This document shows, piece after piece, positions 48,836-58,493 of a DNA stretch of 64,000 nucleotides; the stretch's first letter is position 1; each line of letters starts with the position of its first letter. The stretch is from Escherichia coli (lineage in GTDB: Bacteria > Pseudomonadota > Gammaproteobacteria > Enterobacterales > Enterobacteriaceae), in assembly GCF_003790525.1 (NCBI RefSeq), contig NZ_CP033635.1, one strand, 5' to 3'. The notes beneath the pieces are model-generated. The model had not been told where the DNA came from and searched no databases. It saw nothing but the letters and a program-made list of their open reading frames with translations. The translations under genes and the position numbers were made by a program.

Positions 48836-50527
48836 ATGAAAACGCTGCTGATTATTGACGCTAATCTCGGTCAGGCACGCGCCTATATGGCGAAGACCCT
48901 GCTGGGCGCGGCGGCGCGAAAAGCAAAACTGGAAATCATCGACAATCCGAACGACGCAGAAATGGCGATTGTTCTCGGTGATTCCATCCCGAATGACAGC
49001 GCGCTGAACGGTAAAAATGTCTGGCTGGGCGATATTTCCCGGGCAGTTGCGCACCCTGAGCTGTTCCTGAGTGAAGCCAAAGGCCATGCGAAACCTTACA
49101 CTGCGCCGGTCGCTGCGACAGCACCGGTTGCCGCCAGCGGTCCGAAACGCGTAGTTGCGGTGACTGCTTGCCCGACTGGCGTAGCACACACCTTTATGGC
49201 GGCTGAAGCCATTGAAACCGAAGCGAAAAAACGTGGCTGGTGGGTGAAAGTTGAAACCCGTGGTTCTGTTGGCGCGGGTAATGCAATCACCCCTGAAGAA
49301 GTCGCAGCAGCGGATCTGGTGATTGTGGCGGCAGATATCGAAGTGGATCTGGCGAAATTTGCTGGTAAACCGATGTATCGCACCTCTACCGGTCTGGCGC
49401 TGAAGAAAACTGCGCAGGAACTGGATAAAGCGGTTGCTGAAGCAACGCCGTATGAACCAGCGGGCAAAGCTCAAACAGCGACCACTGAAGGTAAGAAAGA
49501 GAGTGCAGGCGCTTACCGTCACTTGCTGACGGGCGTCTCTTACATGCTGCCGATGGTCGTTGCAGGTGGTCTGTGTATCGCGCTTTCTTTTGCTTTTGGT
49601 ATCGAAGCGTTTAAAGAGCCGGGTACGTTGGCTGCGGCGCTGATGCAGATTGGTGGTGGTTCAGCCTTTGCGTTGATGGTGCCGGTACTGGCAGGTTATA
49701 TTGCCTTTTCCATTGCCGATCGTCCGGGTCTCACGCCGGGTCTGATTGGCGGTATGCTGGCGGTCAGCACCGGTTCTGGCTTCATTGGCGGTATTATTGC
49801 GGGCTTCCTGGCTGGTTACATTGCGAAGTTAATCAGTACGCAATTGAAACTGCCACAGAGTATGGAGGCGCTGAAACCGATTCTGATCATTCCGCTAATT
49901 TCCAGTCTGGTGGTCGGTCTGGCGATGATCTACCTGATCGGTAAACCGGTTGCTGGCATTCTCGAAGGGTTGACTCACTGGCTGCAGACCATGGGGACTG
50001 CGAATGCGGTTCTGCTGGGGGCGATCCTCGGTGGCATGATGTGTACTGACATGGGCGGTCCGGTAAACAAAGCAGCGTACGCATTCGGTGTGGGTCTGCT
50101 GAGTACTCAAACCTATGGCCCGATGGCGGCGATTATGGCGGCAGGTATGGTGCCACCGCTGGCAATGGGCCTGGCAACAATGGTGGCGCGTCGCAAATTC
50201 GACAAGGCGCAGCAGGAAGGGGGCAAAGCTGCTCTGGTACTGGGACTGTGCTTTATTTCGGAAGGTGCAATTCCGTTTGCTGCCCGTGATCCGATGCGTG
50301 TGCTGCCGTGCTGTATCGTGGGTGGGGCGCTGACTGGCGCAATCTCAATGGCGATTGGTGCGAAACTGATGGCACCGCACGGTGGTCTGTTTGTTCTGCT
50401 GATCCCTGGCGCGATTACGCCGGTATTGGGTTACCTGGTAGCCATTATTGCCGGTACGCTGGTGGCGGGGTTGGCCTATGCCTTCCTGAAACGTCCGGAA
50501 GTGGACGCAGTAGCGAAAGCAGCGTAA
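48836..50527 (+). CDS. fruA: Fructose PTS EIIB'BC component
   Basis: 563-aa ORF; two EIIB-like domains followed by a polytopic EIIC domain. Confidence 0.95.
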   Translation: MKTLLIIDANLGQARAYMAKTLLGAAARKAKLEIIDNPNDAEMAIVLGDSIPNDSALNGKNVWLGDISRAVAHPELFLSEAKGHAKPYTAPVAATAPVAASGPKRVVAVTACPTGVAHTFMAAEAIETEAKKRGWWVKVETRGSVGAGNAITPEEVAAADLVIVAADIEVDLAKFAGKPMYRTSTGLALKKTAQELDKAVAEATPYEPAGKAQTATTEGKKESAGAYRHLLTGVSYMLPMVVAGGLCIALSFAFGIEAFKEPGTLAAALMQIGGGSAFALMVPVLAGYIAFSIADRPGLTPGLIGGMLAVSTGSGFIGGIIAGFLAGYIAKLISTQLKLPQSMEALKPILIIPLISSLVVGLAMIYLIGKPVAGILEGLTHWLQTMGTANAVLLGAILGGMMCTDMGGPVNKAAYAFGVGLLSTQTYGPMAAIMAAGMVPPLAMGLATMVARRKFDKAQQEGGKAALVLGLCFISEGAIPFAARDPMRVLPCCIVGGALTGAISMAIGAKLMAPHGGLFVLLIPGAITPVLGYLVAIIAGTLVAGLAYAFLKRPEVDAVAKAA

Positions 50528-50537
50528 TAAAAGGTGT

Positions 50538-50710
50538 GTTACAGGGCAGAAATTTCCTGCCCTGTAACATTTGATGAGCGCAAAGGGAATGACCGGTTTG
50601 TGAATGTAATTTTATGAATTTAAATGGTTTTATCTTTTAGTGGAAACCTGAAACTTTCATCAAACACTAAGGTTATTTCCTCAAGGGCAGATTAATTTCT
50701 GCCCTTTTTT
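50538..50710 (+). terminator. fruA 3' region: perfect 11-bp stem hairpin (about 50538..50568) and a canonical Rho-independent terminator (about 50683..50710)
   Basis: gttacagggcag-aaatttc-ctgccctgtaac, then agggcag-attaattt-ctgccct followed by TTTTTT. Confidence 0.6.
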
Positions 50711-50950
50711 AGTGTTCCTGTTCTGTGCATCCCGTCACAAATTCCCCGTTTTTATAATTCAGGCATTTAATCGCGTTTTGTGAGCCTGCTCAAATCTGCC
50801 CATTTTGCCTCTCTGGCGGTAATTTACTTTACGTAAAACATGCATACTATGAGCACATGTTTAAATATGAACACATGTTTAAACCGTCTTTGCAGTATCA
50901 ATATTCTTGTGGATTGACAGGGTTGGTAATTTTTTACCAGAGGACGTGCT

Positions 50951-51892
50951 ATGCGCGAAAAGGATTATGTCGTAATTATAGGTTCGGCGAATATTGATGT
51001 CGCCGGATATTCACATGAATCATTAAATTATGCGGATTCAAATCCAGGTAAAATAAAATTTACGCCTGGTGGGGTAGGGCGCAATATTGCACAAAACCTG
51101 GCGTTGCTGGGTAATAAAGCCTGGCTACTGAGCGCCGTAGGCAGTGATTTTTATGGCCAATCGCTGCTAACGCAAACCAATCAATCTGGCGTTTATGTCG
51201 ATAAATGCCTGATTGTGCCGGGAGAAAATACGTCGAGCTATTTATCATTACTCGATAATACCGGTGAAATGCTGGTTGCTATAAATGACATGAATATTAG
51301 CAACGCTATTACAGCTGAATATCTCGCACAGCACCGTGAATTTATTCAGAGGGCAAAGGTCATTGTCGCGGACTGTAATATCAGTGAAGAGGCACTGGCA
51401 TGGATTCTGGATAATGCCGCCAACGTACCCGTATTTGTCGATCCGGTTTCAGCGTGGAAATGTGTCAAAGTGCGCGACCGTCTAAATCAAATCCACACTC
51501 TCAAGCCAAACCGCCTTGAAGCGGAAACCCTGAGTGGGATTGCGCTGTCAGGGCGTGAAGATGTGGCAAAGGTTGCCGCCTGGTTCCATCAACATGGCCT
51601 GAACCGACTGGTATTGAGCATGGGCGGCGACGGCGTTTATTACAGTGATATCAGCGGTGAAAGTGGTTGGTCTGCGCCGATCAAAACCAATGTCATTAAT
51701 GTTACCGGAGCGGGCGATGCCATGATGGCGGGACTTGCTTCGTGTTGGGTAGACGGAATGCCGTTTGCCGAATCTGTTCGTTTCGCACAGGGATGTTCGT
51801 CAATGGCGCTCTCCTGTGAATACACCAATAACCCCGATTTATCGATTGCCAACGTTATATCGTTAGTGGAGAACGTAGAATGTCTGAATTAA
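50951..51892 (+). CDS. psuK: Pseudouridine kinase (PfkB family)
   Basis: 313-aa ORF; PfkB signatures PGGVGRNIAQNLALLG and GAGDAMMAG. Confidence 0.9.
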   Translation: MREKDYVVIIGSANIDVAGYSHESLNYADSNPGKIKFTPGGVGRNIAQNLALLGNKAWLLSAVGSDFYGQSLLTQTNQSGVYVDKCLIVPGENTSSYLSLLDNTGEMLVAINDMNISNAITAEYLAQHREFIQRAKVIVADCNISEEALAWILDNAANVPVFVDPVSAWKCVKVRDRLNQIHTLKPNRLEAETLSGIALSGREDVAKVAAWFHQHGLNRLVLSMGGDGVYYSDISGESGWSAPIKTNVINVTGAGDAMMAGLASCWVDGMPFAESVRFAQGCSSMALSCEYTNNPDLSIANVISLVENVECLN

Positions 51893-52818
51893 AAATTTCC
51901 CCTGAATTATTACAAATCTCCCCGGAAGTGCAGGACGCTTTAAAAAACAAAAAACCGGTTGTGGCGCTGGAATCGACTATTATTTCTCACGGGATGCCGT
52001 TCCCACAAAATGCCCAGACCGCAATTGAAGTTGAAGAAACTATTCGTAAACAGGGCGCTGTACCTGCCACTATCGCCATTATTGGCGGCGTGATGAAAGT
52101 GGGTTTAAGCAAAGAAGAAATTGAATTGCTGGGTCGCGAAGGGCATAACGTGACCAAAGTTAGTCGTCGCGATTTACCTTTTGTCGTTGCCGCCGGAAAA
52201 AATGGCGCAACCACTGTGGCTTCAACGATGATTATTGCGGCGCTTGCCGGAATTAAAGTATTTGCCACCGGGGGAATTGGTGGTGTGCATCGCGGGGCGG
52301 AACATACCTTCGATATTTCTGCCGATTTGCAAGAACTGGCAAATACTAATGTCACCGTTGTTTGTGCCGGTGCAAAATCTATTCTCGATTTAGGATTAAC
52401 AACAGAATATTTAGAAACCTTCGGTGTGCCGTTAATTGGCTATCAGACAAAAGCGCTGCCTGCGTTTTTCTGCCGTACCAGCCCATTTGAAGTTAGTATT
52501 CGCCTTGATAGTGCCACGGAAATCGCTCGTGCAATGGCGGTGAAATGGCAAAGCGGTCTGAACGGTGGCCTGGTGGTGGCAAATCCGATCCCGGAACAGT
52601 TTGCGATGCCGGAGGAATCTATCAATGCAGCCATAGATCAAGCCGTCGCCGAAGCCGAAGAGCAGGGCGTTATTGGTAAAGAAAGCACACCGTTCCTGCT
52701 GGCTCGTGTTGCTGAACTGACTGGCGGTGACAGCCTGAAATCCAACATCCAACTGGTGTTCAACAACGCCATTCTGGCGAGCGAAATTGCCAAAGAATAC
52801 CAGCGTCTCGCGGGTTAA
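51880..52818 (+). CDS. psuG: Pseudouridine-5'-phosphate glycosidase
   Basis: 312-aa ORF overlapping the psuK end. Confidence 0.9.
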   Translation: MSELKISPELLQISPEVQDALKNKKPVVALESTIISHGMPFPQNAQTAIEVEETIRKQGAVPATIAIIGGVMKVGLSKEEIELLGREGHNVTKVSRRDLPFVVAAGKNGATTVASTMIIAALAGIKVFATGGIGGVHRGAEHTFDISADLQELANTNVTVVCAGAKSILDLGLTTEYLETFGVPLIGYQTKALPAFFCRTSPFEVSIRLDSATEIARAMAVKWQSGLNGGLVVANPIPEQFAMPEESINAAIDQAVAEAEEQGVIGKESTPFLLARVAELTGGDSLKSNIQLVFNNAILASEIAKEYQRLAG

Positions 52819-52911
52819 TTTCTGACGGGCAGAAAGCCGTCGCCCGTACTGATCATACATACCAAAACCTGGCGCTGACGCCGGGTTTACTGGCATGAAG
52901 GGAAAATCATT

Positions 52912-54162
52912 ATGGATATAATGAGAAGTGTTGTGGGGATGGTGGTGTTACTGGCAATAGCATTTTTGTTGTCAGTGAATAAAAAGAGCATCAGTTTGCG
53001 CACGGTTGGAGCCGCGTTGCTGCTACAAATCGCCATTGGCGGAATCATGCTCTATTTTCCACCAGGAAAATGGGCGGTAGAACAGGCGGCATTAGGCGTT
53101 CATAAAGTGATGTCTTACAGTGATGCCGGTAGCGCCTTCATTTTTGGTTCGCTGGTTGGGCCGAAAATGGATGTCCTCTTTGACGGTGCGGGTTTTATCT
53201 TCGCCTTTCGCGTACTCCCGGCGATTATCTTCGTCACTGCGCTCATTAGTCTGCTGTACTACATTGGCGTGATGGGGCTGCTGATTCGCATCCTTGGCAG
53301 CATTTTCCAGAAAGCCCTCAACATCAGCAAAATCGAATCTTTTGTTGCGGTTACCACTATTTTCCTCGGGCAAAATGAGATCCCGGCGATCGTTAAACCG
53401 TTTATCGATCGCATGAATCGCAACGAGTTGTTTACCGCAATTTGTAGCGGGATGGCGTCCATTGCGGGTTCGATGATGATTGGTTATGCCGGAATGGGCG
53501 TACCAATTGACTACCTGTTAGCGGCATCGCTGATGGCGATCCCTGGCGGGATTTTGTTTGCACGTATTCTTAGCCCGGCAACCGAGCCTTCGCAGGTCAC
53601 ATTTGAAAATTTATCGTTCAGCGAAACGCCGCCAAAAAGCTTTATCGAAGCGGCGGCGAGCGGTGCGATGACCGGGCTGAAAATCGCCGCTGGTGTGGCG
53701 ACGGTGGTAATGGTATTTGTGGCAATTATTGCGCTGATCAACGGCATTATCGGCGGAATTGGCGGCTGGTTTGGCTTCGCCAATGCTTCTCTGGAAAGTA
53801 TTTTTGGCTATGTGCTGGCACCGCTGGCGTGGATCATGGGTGTGGACTGGAGTGATGCCAACCTTGCGGGTAGCCTGATTGGGCAGAAACTGGCAATTAA
53901 CGAATTCGTCGCTTACCTGAGTTTCTCCCCATACCTGCAAACGGGCGGCACGCTGGAAGTGAAAACCATTGCGATTATCTCCTTTGCGCTTTGTGGTTTT
54001 GCTAACTTTGGTTCTATCGGTGTTGTCGTTGGGGCATTTTCGGCTATTTCGCCAAAACGCGCACCGGAAATCGCTCAGCTTGGTTTACGGGCGCTGGCAG
54101 CAGCAACGCTTTCCAACCTGATGAGCGCGACCATTGCCGGGTTCTTTATTGGTTTAGCTTGA
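52912..54162 (+). CDS. psuT: NupC-family nucleoside permease (putative pseudouridine transporter)
   Basis: 416-aa polytopic ORF; near-identical paralog of the ORF at 56099..57349. Confidence 0.9.
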   Translation: MDIMRSVVGMVVLLAIAFLLSVNKKSISLRTVGAALLLQIAIGGIMLYFPPGKWAVEQAALGVHKVMSYSDAGSAFIFGSLVGPKMDVLFDGAGFIFAFRVLPAIIFVTALISLLYYIGVMGLLIRILGSIFQKALNISKIESFVAVTTIFLGQNEIPAIVKPFIDRMNRNELFTAICSGMASIAGSMMIGYAGMGVPIDYLLAASLMAIPGGILFARILSPATEPSQVTFENLSFSETPPKSFIEAAASGAMTGLKIAAGVATVVMVFVAIIALINGIIGGIGGWFGFANASLESIFGYVLAPLAWIMGVDWSDANLAGSLIGQKLAINEFVAYLSFSPYLQTGGTLEVKTIAIISFALCGFANFGSIGVVVGAFSAISPKRAPEIAQLGLRALAAATLSNLMSATIAGFFIGLA

Positions 54163-54229
54163 GTTTCATTGCCGGATGTACGCCTTATTAAGCGTTGCAT
54201 CCGGCAATCGCGCTATTGCAGATTATTTT

Positions 54230-54889
54230 TTACTGCATCATCCCGGAGAATTTATTCTCCGGGTCCATCTCCAGCGCCAGTCCTGACAACTGCTTTCTGT
54301 TTTTAATTAGATATCCTTTCTTGCTTTTAATTAATAAACCGTCGTGAATGAATTGCGCGAGAACATATAAAAGATGTCGATAAGAAACGCCTAAATACTC
54401 TGCCGCTTGCGTATGCTTTTCGTGATAAAGATCACCTTCTTGTGAGAGTAATATAAATGCTGCCAGGCGATTCACTAACGGAAATGATTGATTCTGAGTT
54501 AAAGAAACAATATTGCGATAATTTTTATGGCTTAAACTAACGCAGAGTTTTCGTAAAAATAGCGTGTCGTTTAATAACAGCGGACGGTAATGTTTCATGG
54601 GGAGTGCAAGGCACCAACACTCTTCAATCGCCTGCACCGCACGTGGTTCATGGTCTTTATCGATTAACTCAATCTCACCAATAAAACAGGGGGCGGCAAA
54701 GAAATCGATCAGCGACACGCGACCATTAGCAAGCGTGGCGTAAAGCCTGGCGCGGCCTCGCGTCAGGTAAAACAGCCATGACGGCTGTTGCCCTTCCTGC
54801 ACAATGTAGTCACGTGCTAAAAAATGAAACAGCCGTGCATCGGCTGAAACATCCGTTGAAAAGCAATCCTTAAACGCGGATTCACTCAT
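54230..54889 (-). CDS. yeiL: Crp/Fnr-family transcriptional regulator YeiL
   Basis: ORF 54230..54928; cNMP-binding-like domain plus C-terminal HTH; start trimmed to MSESAFKD (219 aa), uncertain. Confidence 0.88.
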
Positions 54890-55057
54890 CAATTGCTGCT
54901 TAAGATCATTATTGTGGATTTCTTTCACGATATTTATCCGCTATGAGATTTCTCATATTTAGCATACGTACGCTGTTGTTAAGATTCAATCATCGGCCCG
55001 GTCGAATTTTCTTTGCTGTAGAAAAAATAACGCAACTGGAAACAGAGGAAATAAACA

Positions 55058-55999
55058 ATGGAAAAGAGAAAAATTATTCTGGATTGTGATCCGGGTCATG
55101 ATGATGCTATTGCAATGATGATGGCAGCGAAACATCCGGCGATTGATTTATTAGGTATCACCATTGTAGCGGGTAATCAGACGCTTGATAAAACATTAAT
55201 TAATGGCCTGAATGTTTGCCAGAAACTGGAGATTAATGTTCCGGTTTATGCGGGGATGCCACAACCCATTATGCGGCAACAAATCGTTGCCGATAATATT
55301 CACGGTGAAACCGGACTGGATGGCCCGGTATTCGAGCCGCTGACCCGCCAGGCAGAAAGCACTCATGCGGTGAAATATATCATCGATACCCTGATGGCAA
55401 GCGATGGCGATATCACTCTGGTGCCGGTTGGTCCGCTTTCAAATATCGCGGTGGCAATGCGTATGCAGCCCGCGATCCTGCCAAAAATCCGTGAAATTGT
55501 ACTGATGGGCGGCGCTTATGGTACTGGCAACTTCACGCCATCTGCCGAGTTCAACATCTTTGCGGACCCGGAAGCGGCGCGAGTGGTGTTCACCTCCGGC
55601 GTTCCATTAGTGATGATGGGCCTCGATCTCACCAACCAGACCGTTTGCACCCCGGACGTGATTGCTAGGATGGAAAGGGCAGGCGGCCCCGCCGGAGAGC
55701 TGTTCAGCGACATCATGAACTTCACTCTGAAAACGCAGTTCGAAAACTACGGTCTGGCTGGCGGCCCGGTACATGACGCCACCTGTATCGGTTATCTGAT
55801 TAACCCCGATGGCATTAAAACCCAGGAGATGTACGTCGAAGTGGATGTTAACAGTGGCCCTTGCTATGGGCGTACCGTCTGCGACGAGCTGGGCGTTCTT
55901 GGCAAGCCCGCCAATACCAAAGTCGGCATCACTATTGATACCGACTGGTTCTGGGGATTAGTCGAAGAGTGCGTGCGCGGCTACATCAAAACCCATTAA
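55058..55999 (+). CDS. rihB: Pyrimidine-specific ribonucleoside hydrolase RihB
   Basis: 313-aa ORF; nucleoside-hydrolase N-terminal Asp cluster DCDPGHDDA. Confidence 0.92.
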
Positions 56000-56098
56000 G
56001 TGTTGATAACAAGCCGGGACAGTATCGCAAGATGCAGGCCCGGCGATTTCTGATGGGCAGAAAGCCGTCGCCCAAAATGACATGAAGAGATAATAACT

Positions 56099-57349
56099 AT
56101 GGATGTCATGAGAAGTGTTCTGGGAATGGTGGTATTGCTGGCAATTGCATTTTTGCTGTCAGTAAACAAGAAGAGGATCAGCCTGCGTACCGTTGGCGCG
56201 GCGTTAGTGTTACAGGTCGTGATTGGCGGCATTATGCTTTGGTTACCGCCAGGGCGTTGGGTCGCTGAAAAAGTCGCTTTTGGCGTCCATAAAGTGATGG
56301 CGTACAGCGACGCGGGTAGCGCATTTATCTTCGGTTCGCTGGTCGGGCCGAAAATGGACACGCTGTTTGATGGTGCAGGATTTATCTTTGGTTTCAGAGT
56401 ATTACCGGCAATTATCTTCGTCACCGCGCTGGTGAGTATTCTCTACTACATCGGTGTGATGGGGATCTTAATTCGCATTCTCGGCGGTATCTTCCAGAAA
56501 GCATTAAATATCAGCAAGATCGAGTCATTCGTCGCGGTCACTACCATTTTCCTCGGGCAAAACGAAATTCCGGCAATCGTCAAACCCTTTATCGATCGGC
56601 TGAATCGCAATGAATTATTTACAGCGATTTGTAGTGGCATGGCCTCGATTGCTGGTTCGACAATGATTGGTTACGCCGCACTGGGCGTACCTGTGGAATA
56701 TTTGCTGGCGGCATCGTTAATGGCGATCCCAGGCGGGATCTTGTTTGCCCGCCTGTTAAGCCCGGCTACGGAATCTTCGCAGGTTTCTTTTAATAACCTC
56801 TCTTTCACCGAAACACCGCCAAAAAGTATTATTGAGGCCGCTGCGACAGGGGCAATGACCGGGCTGAAAATCGCTGCGGGTGTGGCAACAGTGGTGATGG
56901 CATTTGTTGCCATCATTGCGTTAATTAACGGTATTATCGGCGGCGTTGGCGGCTGGTTTGGTTTTGAGCAAGCCTCGCTGGAGTCCATTTTAGGTTATCT
57001 GCTGGCCCCGCTGGCGTGGGTGATGGGGGTTGACTGGAGTGATGCAAATCTTGCCGGGAGTTTGATTGGGCAGAAGTTGGCGATCAATGAATTTGTCGCT
57101 TACCTCAATTTCTCACCTTATCTGCAAACAGCTGGCACGCTCGATGCTAAAACCGTGGCGATTATTTCCTTCGCGTTGTGCGGTTTCGCTAACTTTGGTT
57201 CTATCGGGGTAGTGGTTGGGGCATTTTCTGCGGTTGCGCCACACCGCGCGCCGGAAATCGCCCAGCTTGGTTTACGCGCGCTGGCGGCGGCGACACTTTC
57301 TAACCTGATGAGTGCCACCATTGCAGGATTCTTTATTGGCTTAGCGTAG
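56099..57349 (+). CDS. nupX: NupC-family nucleoside permease NupX
   Basis: 416-aa polytopic ORF, paralog of psuT. Confidence 0.92.
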   Translation: MDVMRSVLGMVVLLAIAFLLSVNKKRISLRTVGAALVLQVVIGGIMLWLPPGRWVAEKVAFGVHKVMAYSDAGSAFIFGSLVGPKMDTLFDGAGFIFGFRVLPAIIFVTALVSILYYIGVMGILIRILGGIFQKALNISKIESFVAVTTIFLGQNEIPAIVKPFIDRLNRNELFTAICSGMASIAGSTMIGYAALGVPVEYLLAASLMAIPGGILFARLLSPATESSQVSFNNLSFTETPPKSIIEAAATGAMTGLKIAAGVATVVMAFVAIIALINGIIGGVGGWFGFEQASLESILGYLLAPLAWVMGVDWSDANLAGSLIGQKLAINEFVAYLNFSPYLQTAGTLDAKTVAIISFALCGFANFGSIGVVVGAFSAVAPHRAPEIAQLGLRALAAATLSNLMSATIAGFFIGLA

Positions 57350-57404
57350 TGCGCGAGTTATGAGCCGGATAAGACGCGGTCAAGCGTCGAATCCGGCAAG
57401 ATTG

Positions 57405-58493
57405 TTACACCATCGGCACTAATGAAAGCGCGTTATCGGCAGACAGGGTAGGGTTGTTTAAGCTGCCGCTGGCGCGTGAAATTGCCGCGCAGGCCATCGC
57501 AAAACGGGCGCTGTCACGGAAACTGCTTCCTTCCAGAAAGCTATACACCAGGCCCGCCATAAAACCATCGTCAGCACCAAAACTGTCTACCGTCGTATGC
57601 GCTGGCGCAGTCAGCAAAAATTGTTCGCCATCCTTTTGGCTGCAATAAACAGACTCATCGGGCAAATAAACAAACAGTTGCTGAACGCCTTGCTGATGCA
57701 ACGCATTCACTGCGGCATTACGATCAGCATCGCGGGTTATCGGCTGGCCCCATAAAATTTCCAGCTCCGACAAAGTGGGTTTCAGAGTGTGAATATGCGC
57801 CAGCCAGTGTTTGATTTTGCCCGCTTTGAATTCTGAAACGGTATCGACAAACACCGGGATTTCATCAGCGAGGGTAAAGACCCATTCCAGCGCCTCGGCT
57901 GTCAGGTTACAATCTGCCAGTACCACGCCCGCATGACGAAGTAAATCGCGCGACCCGTTCAGTAGTTGCGGTGTCAACTGATCCAGCAGATGGGTATCGT
58001 TAATCGCCAGCACGGTTTGATCGTCTCGATTGGCAATTGCCAGATACGTCGATGTGCTTTGACCATGTAAACGAACGCAGCCGGAGACATTCACGCCGGC
58101 GCGGCGCGTTTCTTCCAGGAGCATTTCGCCATAAAAGTCATCGCCAATCACTGAAAGCAAATGAACGTCGCGGCCTAACAGCGCCAGATTGTGGGCGATA
58201 TTGCGTCCAACGCCGCCTGCCGAGCAATGAATGGTACCGGGATGAGAAGCCGCTTGCGGGTAACGGATATCCGCCATCCCGCGAATATCCATATTGATTG
58301 TCCCCACCACTACGCAGTATTCCTGCTCGGTGAGAATGTAACCTTTGCCTTTAATCCGTCCTTTGCGCATTAAATCCATAATATGCGCTGCAACACGCGA
58401 ACGGCTGATTTGCAGCATATCCGCAATTTCGTTCTGCTGAATCAGCGGGTTACGCCTTAATATTGCAAGGATCTCCTTCTCCCGGTTATTCAT
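57405..58493 (-). CDS. yeiI: Uncharacterised fusion protein: N-terminal winged-helix HTH + PfkB-family kinase
   Basis: 362-aa ORF; N-terminal HTH (EILAILRRNPLIQQNEIADMLQISRSRVAAHI) then PfkB kinase domain (AGGVGRNIAHNLALLG, GADDGFMAG) paralogous to PsuK. Confidence 0.88.
   Translation of the reverse strand: MNNREKEILAILRRNPLIQQNEIADMLQISRSRVAAHIMDLMRKGRIKGKGYILTEQEYCVVVGTINMDIRGMADIRYPQAASHPGTIHCSAGGVGRNIAHNLALLGRDVHLLSVIGDDFYGEMLLEETRRAGVNVSGCVRLHGQSTSTYLAIANRDDQTVLAINDTHLLDQLTPQLLNGSRDLLRHAGVVLADCNLTAEALEWVFTLADEIPVFVDTVSEFKAGKIKHWLAHIHTLKPTLSELEILWGQPITRDADRNAAVNALHQQGVQQLFVYLPDESVYCSQKDGEQFLLTAPAHTTVDSFGADDGFMAGLVYSFLEGSSFRDSARFAMACAAISRASGSLNNPTLSADNALSLVPMV

What the first reader, a model, noticed from the sequence alone, without database searches (positions are those of the whole stretch)
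52819..56080. A conserved 20-nt block and small hairpin sit in the leader of both NupC-family permease paralogs (psuT and nupX), with one compensatory base-pair change
The sequence just before psuT reads TTCTGACGGGCAGAAAGCCGTCGCCCGT (about 52820..52847) and that before nupX reads TTCTGATGGGCAGAAAGCCGTCGCCCAA (about 56048..56074). The core GGGCAGAAAGCCGTCGCCC is identical in both. The flanking arms can pair (CGGGC/GCCCG versus TGGGC/GCCCA), and the single difference in the 5' arm (C to T) is matched by G to A in the 3' arm, which preserves the stem. In both cases the element lies between the stop of a non-homologous N-glycosidase gene (psuG or rihB) and the permease start. The duplicated unit therefore looks like leader element plus permease, and the element is under stronger constraint than ordinary intergenic DNA. 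It could be a protein operator, an RNA attenuator or a processing/stability element; I know of no described regulator for these genes. One covarying pair is weak evidence on its own.
Basis: seen in the sequence. Interest (0 to 1): 0.5.

Follow-up and report, generated by a model that had tools for sequence, protein, structure and literature searches.

The report
Conserved RNA hairpin before nucleoside permeases
The repeated 20-base block is real: it is a small RNA hairpin kept, with compensating base changes, in front of the psuT and nupX nucleoside-permease genes across many enteric bacteria, so it is probably an undescribed control element of the permease message, though its exact job is still unknown.

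Summary
The window is E. coli SMS-3-5.

The evidence for a real element:
- I collected 44 distinct versions of the leader from about a dozen enterobacterial genera and from metagenomes. The metagenome search was anchored on the coding start, not on the element.
- Every complete psuT/nupX leader except one carries the hairpin P1: 5 G+C-rich pairs, often a sixth, and a loop of exactly 11 nt.
- Stem pairs covary (C-G/U-A/U.G, G-C/A-U). 95.5% of cells pair, against 32-53% when the partners are slid.
- One-sided changes are almost always wobbles on the sense strand. That points to RNA rather than a DNA operator.
- Neutral sites are near saturation (4-fold identity about 0.5). P1 is 0.77-0.83 identical and its flanks 0.38-0.63.

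The rest of the leader:
- psuT leaders also keep a C/A-rich linker and a second, terminator-shaped hairpin, P2. Most nupX leaders have lost P2.
- So the duplicated unit was leader plus permease.

Caveats:
- The near-identity of the two E. coli copies (27 of 28) is higher than in other genera, which suggests local homogenisation.
- Rfam has no match, and I found no paper describing the element.
- Function is inferred only. I favour a cis-acting leader hairpin, probably read by a trans-acting factor, that sets permease output.

The parts
51880..52818 (+). psuG (pseudouridine-5'-phosphate glycosidase), the upstream gene of the first copy. Its stop codon TAA is at 52816-52818.
   Evidence: ORF; annotation of the identical SMS-3-5 record.
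52818..52825 (+). 5' flank ATTTCTGA shared by both E. coli copies. It is not conserved in other genera.
   Evidence: Alignment. 5' flank identity is 0.8 between the E. coli paralogs, 0.3-0.6 between paralogs in other genera, and 0.38-0.45 among orthologs.
52826..52846 (+). P1 hairpin of the psuT leader: CGGGC (52826-52830), 11-nt loop AGAAAGCCGTC (52831-52841), GCCCG (52842-52846). A sixth pair, A52825-U52847, is possible.
   Evidence: covariation; folds alone as predicted, -11.1 kcal/mol; model R1: 42.9 bits, E 5e-10.
52852..52867 (+). C/A-rich linker predicted to be single-stranded, motif AUCA-nnn-AUACC-nAAA. It is conserved in psuT leaders and in several nupX leaders.
   Evidence: Alignments. 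No pairing partner was found.
52864..52888 (+). P2, a hairpin shaped like an intrinsic terminator: A tract, stem CCUGGCG (52868-52874) / CGCCGGG (52879-52885), loop CUGA, then UUU (52886-52888).
   Evidence: RNAalifold consensus; -18.1 kcal/mol. It is present in all psuT leaders with a 3-4 U tail. It does not meet the stricter T-run rule of the terminator scan.
52898..52914 (+). Shine-Dalgarno-like AAGGGA (52898-52903) and the psuT start codon (52912-52914).
   Evidence: conserved in the alignment.
52912..54162 (+). psuT, a NupC/CNT-family permease of 416 aa.
55058..55999 (+). rihB (pyrimidine ribonucleoside hydrolase), the upstream gene of the second copy.
56013..56044 (+). P0, a hairpin just after the rihB stop (GCCGGG...CCCGGC). 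Its sequence differs between genera, but some hairpin is usually present at this place.
   Evidence: Fold; other genera read by eye, with one fold (Buttiauxella).
56046..56053 (+). 5' flank ATTTCTGA, the second copy.
56054..56074 (+). P1 hairpin of the nupX leader: UGGGC (56054-56058), the same 11-nt loop (56059-56069), GCCCA (56070-56074).
   Evidence: -8.3 kcal/mol; 38.7 bits, E 9e-9.
56099..57349 (+). nupX, the paralogous permease: 88% amino-acid and 79% DNA identity to psuT. In this strain its leader lacks P2 and most of the linker.

Best explanation
Shown: the block is P1, a 21-nt hairpin formed by the sense-strand RNA. It has 5 G+C-rich pairs, often a sixth, and an 11-nt loop with G2, G6, C7, G9 and U10 conserved. 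P1 is the first module of a 60-95-nt leader that was duplicated together with the permease gene and is kept in psuT and nupX across Enterobacteriaceae. In psuT leaders it is followed by a C/A-rich stretch predicted to be unpaired and by P2, a hairpin shaped like an intrinsic terminator with a short U tract, 10-20 nt before the ribosome-binding site.

Inferred: the leader acts in cis on the permease cistron and sets permease output separately from the upstream glycosidase gene. P2, where present, would stop part of the transcripts that read through from psuKG. P1 is the only module kept in nearly every leader, with a fixed size and a conserved loop. I take it to be a recognition hairpin for a trans-acting protein or RNA that controls read-through, translation or half-life of the permease message. 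The partner and the signal are unknown.
For: P1 is present in 21 of 22 leaders from genome and assembly loci. It is also in every complete psuT/nupX leader found by a search anchored on the coding start. Stem covariation on 44 distinct sequences: pair 1 CG34/UA6/UG4, pair 2 GC39/AU5, loop-closing pair GC35/GU5/AU2; 95.5% of cells paired against 32-53% when slid; 0 of 500 shuffles reach the score. Two competing pairings fail. In the five core stem pairs, one-sided changes give 7 wobble cells on the + strand and a single A.C mismatch; the loop-closing pair adds 5 G.U cells and 2 unpaired cells. P1 identity is 0.77-0.83, against 0.47-0.50 at 4-fold sites and 0.38-0.63 in the flanks. Loop length is always 11 nt. 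G9 and U10 are invariant in the first 21 leaders, which were found without any constraint on the loop. The loop positions are not explained by extra pairs. P2 is conserved, stable and followed by 3-4 U in all psuT leaders. P1 stays with the permease, not with the upstream gene: the upstream genes are unrelated, the rihB context has its own hairpin P0, and the distance from P1 to the start codon falls in discrete classes.
Against: There is no experimental evidence of any kind, and no trans-acting partner has been identified. No transcript ends at psuG, psuT or rihB appear in a published E. coli 3'-end map. The Enterobacter nupX version turns the loop into a continuous 12-bp helix. Entomohabitans psuT replaces P1 with a 15-bp hairpin. 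Both suggest that a plain hairpin may be enough. P2 has only 3-4 U and fails a strict terminator rule. Its stem shows only one-sided changes, and most nupX leaders do without it. No pairing that would link P1 to P2 or to the ribosome-binding site was found.
Confidence: 0.45

Rival explanations
1. Passive processing or stability hairpin. P1 only marks and protects the 5' edge of the permease cistron after endonucleolytic cleavage of the polycistronic RNA, or blocks RNase E scanning. No specific partner or signal is involved.
For: Some hairpin at this place is the most general feature: 12 bp in Enterobacter nupX, 15 bp in Entomohabitans psuT and 16-19 bp in Hafnia/Serratia psuG-psuT spacers. A/U-rich sequence lies just 5' of P1 in E. 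coli and Citrobacter. No link to P2 or to the ribosome-binding site was found.
Against: The fixed 11-nt loop and its conserved G2, G6, C7, G9 and U10 are not needed for a simple barrier, and they are not explained by extra pairs. The stem is only marginally stable (-8 to -11 kcal/mol), which is weak for a nuclease barrier.
Confidence: 0.25
2. Hairpin-dependent transcriptional pause signal. P1 forms in the RNA exit channel and pauses RNA polymerase about 10 nt downstream, at the conserved AUCA. This would time terminator P2 or ribosome loading.
For: From my own knowledge, the size is like the his-leader pause hairpin (5-bp stem, 8-nt loop). The conserved AUCA lies 6-11 nt after the stem in most leaders. 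P1 lies upstream of a terminator-like hairpin in psuT leaders.
Against: AUCA is shifted to 14-17 nt in Leclercia and Enterobacter psuT. There is no consensus pause sequence (pyrimidine then G) at the expected site. P1 is kept where P2 is absent. These tools cannot test the idea.
Confidence: 0.1
3. Small ligand-sensing riboswitch. P1 plus the C/A-rich tail would be a compact aptamer, resembling the preQ1-I hairpin-plus-tail pseudoknot in shape. It would sense a pyrimidine nucleoside or a related metabolite and control P2 or translation.
For: Architecture: a 5-bp hairpin with a 10-11-nt conserved loop, an A/C-rich tail and then a terminator-like hairpin. The genes take up or break down pyrimidine nucleosides, and neither paper search for these genes turned up a described regulator.
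Against: No covarying loop-tail or loop-flank pairing was found. The tail is largely deleted in the E. coli K-12 and SMS-3-5 nupX leaders. The variable loop positions have no matching partner. Rfam gives no match.
Confidence: 0.08
4. DNA operator. The inverted repeat YGGGC-N11-GCCCR would be bound by a dimeric transcription factor, for example the neighbouring HTH-kinase YeiI or the CRP/FNR-type YeiL.
For: It is an inverted repeat. Two regulator-like genes of unknown function lie in the locus. RNA polymerase with sigma-S binds inside psuG in a SELEX screen (PMC5493296).
Against: Asymmetric variants are almost all T..G or G..T on the coding strand, never C..A at pairs 1 and 2. A symmetric DNA-binding dimer would not distinguish these. 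One genome carries C..G and T..A versions side by side. Loci with P1 can lack yeiI (L081, L085) or yeiL (L082) next door. No promoter-like site is nearby, and the site lies inside a transcribed spacer. The arm centres are 16 bp apart, about one and a half helical turns, which is unusual for a dimer (my own reasoning).
Confidence: 0.07
5. No function: a leftover of a recent duplication or gene conversion between the two leaders.
For: The two E. coli copies are much more alike (P1 0.86-0.90, 5' flank 0.8) than paralog pairs in other genera. So some homogenisation did happen in Escherichia.
Against: P1 is kept in about a dozen genera although neutral sites are near saturation (4-fold identity 0.47-0.50) and flanks have decayed to 0.38. 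Compensatory changes keep the stem.
Confidence: 0.03

Closest known systems
Intercistronic attenuators of enterobacterial operons (for example the rph-pyrE attenuator; the gltI-gltJ spacer that yields SroC)
   Same: A structured spacer between an enzyme or binding-protein gene and the next cistron, with a terminator-shaped hairpin just before the downstream ribosome-binding site. The expected result is lower or separately set expression of the downstream gene. The genes belong to pyrimidine metabolism, as with pyrE.
   Different: No U-rich pause region or long U tract. Coupling to upstream translation cannot be general, because P1 lies 7-10 nt after the psuG stop but 46-70 nt after the rihB stop. 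Most nupX leaders lack the terminator-like hairpin altogether. The comparison rests on my knowledge of those systems and was not tested here.
Protein-binding leader hairpins (thrS operator, ribosomal-protein operators, PyrR binding loop, phage coat-protein operators)
   Same: A short stem that covaries, a fixed-size loop with a few invariant bases, and a position in the 5' leader of the regulated gene.
   Different: No partner protein is known. The loop sequence matches none of these operators that I can recall. P1 is 24-67 nt from the start codon and does not overlap the ribosome-binding site.
preQ1-I riboswitch
   Same: A 5-bp hairpin with a loop of about 10 nt, followed by an A/C-rich tail and an expression platform; very small overall.
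   Different: The defining loop-tail pseudoknot has no support here. There is no Rfam match. The tail can be lost in some nupX leaders.
5'-terminal stabilising stem-loops (for example the ompA 5' UTR hairpin)
   Same: A hairpin at the upstream edge of a message that could shield it from 5'-end-dependent decay.
   Different: It is not known whether any RNA 5' end lies next to P1. Those hairpins do not need a conserved loop.

Membership tests
Any described RNA family (Rfam 15) | Match to a curated covariance model | tested here: not met
   cmscan of window 50500-57600 at E up to 10 gave 7 weak hits, none overlapping either leader.
Conserved structured cis-regulatory RNA | Base pairs kept through compensatory and wobble changes across species | tested here: met
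   4 pairs show changes on both sides in 23 cells; 95.5% of cells paired; 0 of 500 shuffles reach the score; slid controls give 32-53%. Pairs 1 and 2 were left free on both sides when the sequences were located.
Conserved structured cis-regulatory RNA | Conserved more than neutral sequence of the same age | tested here: met
   P1 identity 0.77-0.83, against 0.47-0.50 at 4-fold sites and 0.38-0.63 in 10-nt flanks.
Intrinsic (Rho-independent) terminator / attenuator (hairpin P2) | G+C-rich stem with a short loop | tested here: met
   6-7-bp stem and 4-6-nt loop; -18 kcal/mol including A/U tract pairing.
Intrinsic (Rho-independent) terminator / attenuator (hairpin P2) | Run of U directly after the stem | tested here: inconclusive
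   Only UUU or UUUU, followed by other bases, in all 28 distinct versions. This falls below the scan's rule of 5 T in 8. It could be a weak or partial terminator.
Intrinsic (Rho-independent) terminator / attenuator (hairpin P2) | RNA 3' ends at the U tract in vivo or in vitro | not testable with these tools
   The supplementary files of a published E. coli Term-seq study (as held here) show no hit for psuG or psuT. These genes are probably poorly expressed in the conditions used, which is my assumption.
Riboswitch with hairpin-plus-tail pseudoknot (preQ1-I-like) | Pairing between loop and 3' tail, supported by covariation | tested here: not met
   An all-against-all column scan of 47 long and 14 short leaders found no run of consecutive covarying pairs beyond P1 and P2.
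Riboswitch with hairpin-plus-tail pseudoknot (preQ1-I-like) | Ligand binding | not testable with these tools
   Needs in-line probing or calorimetry.
Palindromic transcription-factor operator | Both orientations of an asymmetric variant equally tolerated (no strand preference) | tested here: not met
   In the five core stem pairs: 7 wobble-type cells on the + strand and one A.C cell. At pairs 1 and 2: UG 4, CA 0, AC 0.
Palindromic transcription-factor operator | Co-occurrence with a candidate regulator gene | tested here: not met
   Loci with P1 lack an adjacent yeiI (L081, L085) or an adjacent yeiL (L082). Only the neighbourhood was examined, not whole genomes.
Dispersed repeat (REP/BIME-type) | Many copies per genome in varied contexts | tested here: not met
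   Median 2 and at most 3 places per genome in 5,424 E. coli genomes. No further copy in the 64-kb window or in 88 related loci with model R1.
Long-range anti-Shine-Dalgarno structure (translational coupling) | The 5' flank of P1 pairs with the ribosome-binding region more than shuffled flanks do | tested here: not met
   The flank-to-SD pairing probability beat at least 95% of the shuffled flanks in only 3 of 60 leaders.

The most novel reading that the evidence does not exclude
P1, together with the C/A-rich tail and with P2 where present, is an undescribed and very small sensor that couples expression of the CNT-family permeases PsuT and NupX to a pyrimidine-related signal such as pseudouridine, its phosphate, uridine or UTP. 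It would do so either directly as a mini-riboswitch or through a dedicated RNA-binding protein. That would make it the first known regulator of pseudouridine salvage in bacteria.
Probability: 0.12. Interest if true: 0.75.

Novelty: new member of a known kind. Interest (0 to 1): 0.42.

Why it matters
Neither paper search for psuT, nupX, psuG, psuK, rihB, yeiL or yeiI turned up a described regulator of psuKGT or rihB-nupX, and PsuT and NupX are little studied. A covariation-supported RNA element placed exactly in front of both permeases gives a concrete 21-nt handle for asking how enteric bacteria control uptake of pseudouridine and other pyrimidine nucleosides. That question also bears on engineered pseudouridine production and on uptake of nucleoside drugs by gut bacteria. 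The element is small enough for complete mutational and binding analysis. If it proves to be only a stability hairpin, it remains a clean example of a leader module inherited with a duplicated gene and locally homogenised between paralogs.

Tried and rejected
- Alternative pairing GACGG/CCGUC, which is the minimum-energy fold of the E. coli psuT leader: only 70% paired and no compensatory change across genera.
- The perfect E. coli palindrome TTTCTG/CAGAAA: 59% paired elsewhere, no better than slid controls.
- Extra pairs inside the loop (L3-L10, L4-L9), which would give a UNCG-like cap: paired in only 36-39% of sequences.
- A long-range helix between the pyrimidine-rich 5' flank and the Shine-Dalgarno region: not above shuffled flanks.
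- Any further covarying helix, including a loop-tail pseudoknot or a P1-P2 antiterminator: none in the all-column scan. Candidate pairings seen by eye in E. coli are absent in Citrobacter.
- A conserved upstream ORF or leader peptide: the AUG made by GA+UGGGC in some nupX leaders and the AUGAAGGG upstream of psuT are not conserved in frame or in presence (read by eye).
- An internal promoter at P1: no promoter-like site in the scan, and no conserved -10 by eye. The published sigma-S SELEX peak lies inside psuG, not at P1, by my rough coordinate conversion.
- More copies elsewhere, as a regulon or a repeat: none.
- Resemblances recalled from memory were not pursued, because key positions differ or vary between genera: RfaH ops GGCGGTAGCGTG, tRNA-Thr anticodon NGU, GcvB target sites, the ChiX seed.
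- Literature: no paper on a psuT or nupX leader. The Term-seq supplementary files held here show no hit for psuG, psuT or rihB.
Full report
**Where the window comes from and what the genes are.** The 6.5-kb stretch around the finding is 100% identical to E. coli SMS-3-5 (NC_010498.1), read on the opposite strand. RefSeq annotates psuK, psuG, psuT, yeiL, rihB and nupX there. The ORFs are psuK 50951-51892, psuG 51880-52818, psuT 52912-54162, yeiL 54230-54928 (minus strand), rihB 55058-55999 and nupX 56099-57349.

- The 19-nt core occurs exactly twice in 64 kb, with no other match at up to three mismatches (0.02 expected).
- The shared stretch is ATTTCTGA-YGGGC-AGAAAGCCGTC-GCCC, 27 of 28 identical. 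In the psuT copy it begins at the last base of the psuG stop codon.
- The two permease genes are 88% identical in protein and 79% in DNA. They are only 52.5% identical at third codon positions and 0.47 at 4-fold degenerate sites.
- Unconstrained DNA of the age of the duplication should therefore be close to random, and the block is not.
- In 5,424 E. coli genomes a 40-nt query that includes the element finds a median of two places per genome and at most three. It is not a dispersed repeat.

**Comparative data.**
- A protein-based scan of one genome per species gave psuT or nupX loci from Escherichia, Citrobacter, Leclercia and Superficieibacter, and more distant ones from Hafnia, Serratia and a Klebsiella-named isolate.
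- Eight look-ups of encoding contigs added Buttiauxella, Klebsiella michiganensis, K. spallanzanii, Kluyvera, Enterobacter hormaechei, Entomohabitans, Citrobacter freundii and an unnamed assembly.
- I then scanned metagenome contigs with a pattern taken only from the coding start (TCATTATGGANNTNATGAGAAG), so that the leader itself played no part in the selection.
- Of 22 leaders from the genome and assembly loci, 21 carry the same hairpin, P1, with a loop of exactly 11 nt.
- In the combined set there are 44 distinct 33-nt versions. The leaders without a match were the three Hafnia-type loci, Entomohabitans psuT, three truncated contigs and three unrelated chance hits of the pattern.

**P1 is an RNA hairpin on the sense strand.** Counts on the 44 distinct sequences:

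| Pair | Types seen |
|---|---|
| 1 (outermost of the five) | C-G 34, U-A 6, U.G 4 |
| 2 | G-C 39, A-U 5 |
| 3 | G-C 42, G.U 1, A.C 1 |
| 4 | G-C 43, G.U 1 |
| 5 | C-G 43, U.G 1 |
| outer sixth pair | A-U 19, G-C 10, G.U 4, unpaired 11 |
| loop position 2 with 11 | G-C 35, G.U 5, A-U 2, unpaired 2 |

- Overall 95.5% of cells pair, against 32-53% when the 3' partners are slid by one to three columns. None of 500 column shuffles reaches the observed score.
- Pairs 1 and 2 were left free on both sides when the sequences were located, so the absence of mismatches there is not built in.
- Two other pairings that look good in E. coli fail across genera. These are GACGG/CCGUC, which is part of the minimum-energy fold, and the TTTCTG/CAGAAA palindrome.
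- In the five core pairs, one-sided changes give seven wobble cells on the coding strand and one A.C cell.
- A symmetric DNA-binding dimer could not tell T..G from C..A, since each is the reverse complement of the other. This asymmetry therefore favours RNA over an operator.
- The sequences are related, so these counts overstate the number of events. By eye I count at least five or six independent compensatory or wobble events.

**Constraint.** Among orthologs from different genera, 4-fold sites are 0.47-0.50 identical and the 10 nt on either side of P1 are 0.38-0.63. P1 itself is 0.77-0.83. The loop is always 11 nt. G2, G6, C7, G9 and U10 are nearly or fully invariant, while positions 3-5 and 8 vary freely. 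G9 and U10 were required by the second search expression, but they were already invariant in the 21 leaders found with a loop-free expression. Extra pairs inside the loop are not supported. Folded alone, P1 adopts the predicted structure at -8 to -11 kcal/mol.

**The rest of the leader.**
- Homology between psuT and nupX leaders does not stop at P1.
- psuT leaders continue with a C/A-rich stretch (AUCA-nnn-AUACC-nAAA) and then P2. P2 has an A tract, a 6-7-bp G+C-rich stem, a 4-6-nt loop and UUU or UUUU, and it ends 10-20 nt before the Shine-Dalgarno sequence.
- P2 is stable, at -18 kcal/mol, and it is present in every psuT leader. Its stem varies only by one-sided changes, and its U tract is too short for the strict terminator rule of the scan. 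I treat it as a weak or partial terminator, unproven.
- The K. spallanzanii-type nupX leaders keep linker and P2. Superficieibacter and Entomohabitans keep the linker only. Most others, including E. coli, lack P2. The sequences are consistent with a deletion between two CCTGG repeats (inference).
- K-12 and SMS-3-5 nupX leaders carry a further deletion that leaves P1 24 nt from the start codon. Another E. coli strain has a longer form.
- The ancestral duplicated unit was therefore P1-linker-P2-ribosome-binding site-permease, and P1 is the part that is almost never lost.
- In rihB-nupX spacers a separate hairpin, P0, follows the rihB stop. Its sequence differs between genera. P1 thus belongs to the permease, not to the upstream gene.

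**Why the two E. coli copies are so alike.** In Kluyvera, C. freundii, Enterobacter and an unnamed relative, the psuT and nupX hairpins of one genome are 43-76% identical and their 5' flanks 30-60%. In E. coli the values are 86-90% and 80%, and the 3' flanks are as diverged as elsewhere. The shared E. coli flank ATTTCTGA looks like a mix of the psuT-type ATTTCY and the nupX-type CTGA seen in other genera. I infer a short homogenisation tract of about 30 nt between the two leaders in the Escherichia lineage.

**What it is not.**
- Rfam 15 has no match at either leader.
- A covariance model of P1 finds only the two copies in the window and the known copies in 88 related loci. It finds nothing before psuK, rihB or more distant CNT genes.
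- No promoter-like site lies nearby.
- The K-12 record annotates nothing in either spacer.
- Literature searches found no description of a leader element or a regulator.
- A sigma-S holoenzyme SELEX peak is reported inside psuG (PMC5493296). By my approximate coordinate conversion it lies about 200 bp upstream of the psuG stop, so it does not explain P1.
- The supplementary files of a Term-seq study of E. coli, as held here, show no hit for psuG, psuT or rihB (PMC7815308).

**Mechanism.** This part is inference.
- The anatomy says that P1 acts on the permease message in cis. It travels with the permease, lies in transcribed spacer RNA, has a fixed size and a sequence-conserved loop, and does not overlap the ribosome-binding site.
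- I found no conserved pairing that links P1 to P2, to the Shine-Dalgarno region or to its own tail. A self-contained switch is therefore not supported.
- The reading I favour (confidence 0.45 for the element as a functional cis-acting leader module working broadly in this way) is that the leader sets permease output independently of the upstream glycosidase. P2 would stop some transcripts in psuT. P1 would serve as a recognition hairpin for a protein or RNA that affects read-through, translation or half-life.
- The main rival is a passive processing or stability hairpin. It is helped by three lineages in which a plain, longer hairpin takes the place of P1: 12 bp in Enterobacter nupX, and 15 bp in Entomohabitans psuT and 16-19 bp in Hafnia/Serratia psuG-psuT spacers.
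- A pause hairpin, a mini-riboswitch and a DNA operator are less likely, for the reasons given under the rival explanations.

**Novelty and verdict.** This is a well-supported, apparently undescribed, small cis-acting RNA element of a familiar general kind, with an unknown partner and signal. I rate it a new member of a known kind with moderate interest. The evidence is comparative only, and the genes appear to be weakly expressed under standard laboratory conditions, so the experiments listed under next steps are needed to learn what it does.

Noticed in passing
L006 815-1933 (Hafnia paralvei); window 57405-58493 (-) yeiI; window 50951-51892 psuK: In Hafnia the kinase gene just upstream of psuG encodes 372 aa: a PsuK-type kinase domain (60% identical to E. 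coli PsuK) plus an N-terminal HTH domain like that of E. coli YeiI (51% identical over the full length). E. coli PsuK lacks the HTH, while the neighbouring paralog YeiI keeps it. HTH-PsuK/YeiI might therefore be a combined kinase and regulator of this locus (Pfam HTH_24+PfkB).
   Followed up: partly
L006 2918-2966, L007 2871-2914, L008 (psuG-psuT spacers of Hafnia, Serratia and Klebsiella sp. BIGb0407): These more distant psuT orthologs (73% aa) have a long irregular hairpin, CCTGAAAGG...CCTTTCAGG, of 16-19 bp and about -30 kcal/mol, where P1 would be. Its inner part (TGGGCA..GTTTGCTCTC) resembles P1 of metagenome locus L194 (TGGGCAGTTTGCTGTC). Homology was not tested.
   Followed up: partly
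window 56070-56098; L209 647-745 (K-12); L001 6165-6201: E. coli carries two forms of the nupX leader. A short one (K-12, SMS-3-5) has P1 24 nt from the start codon. A longer one (L001) keeps TAACGGGATCAGACCTG, as in other genera.
   Followed up: no
L086 2607-2643 (Entomohabitans teleogrylli psuT leader): This is the only complete psuT/nupX-clade leader without P1. A 15-bp hairpin (CAGGCGCTGTTCCCGG...CCGGGAAACAGCGCTG) sits in its place, and the P2 equivalent has lost its U tract.
   Followed up: partly
L153 (Cebus capucinus gut metagenome contig): A divergent Klebsiella-like psuT leader has mismatches in both P1 (A.C at pair 3) and P2. It may be a decaying copy or may contain sequencing errors.
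   Followed up: no
window 50537-50569 (-) and 50683-50706 (+): Two terminator-like hairpins lie in the 420-nt spacer between fruA and psuK. The second (AAGGGCAGA...TCTGCCCTT followed by TTTTT) was a weak hit of the P1 model (10.3 bits), purely because of its GGGCAG arm.
   Followed up: no
window 52907-52922 and the same place in all psuT leaders: RNAalifold predicts a small A/U-rich hairpin, CAUUAU-GGAU-AUAAUG, that encloses the start codon and the fourth codon, which is also AUG. Its conservation may simply reflect the coding sequence and my search pattern.
   Followed up: no
E. coli K-12 psuG, about 200 bp upstream of its stop (my approximate conversion from the older genome coordinates): A published genomic SELEX screen lists a sigma-S RNA polymerase binding peak inside psuG (position 2255672 in the older K-12 coordinates). 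It could mark an internal promoter for psuT (PMC5493296).
   Followed up: partly
L081 5944-6003 (Buttiauxella nupX leader): The bases GA plus the UGGGC arm of P1 create an AUG that is in frame with nupX, with no stop codon in between (19 extra codons). The 463-aa database protein P0001 may reflect a similar start-site call. The frame is not conserved in E. coli.
   Followed up: no
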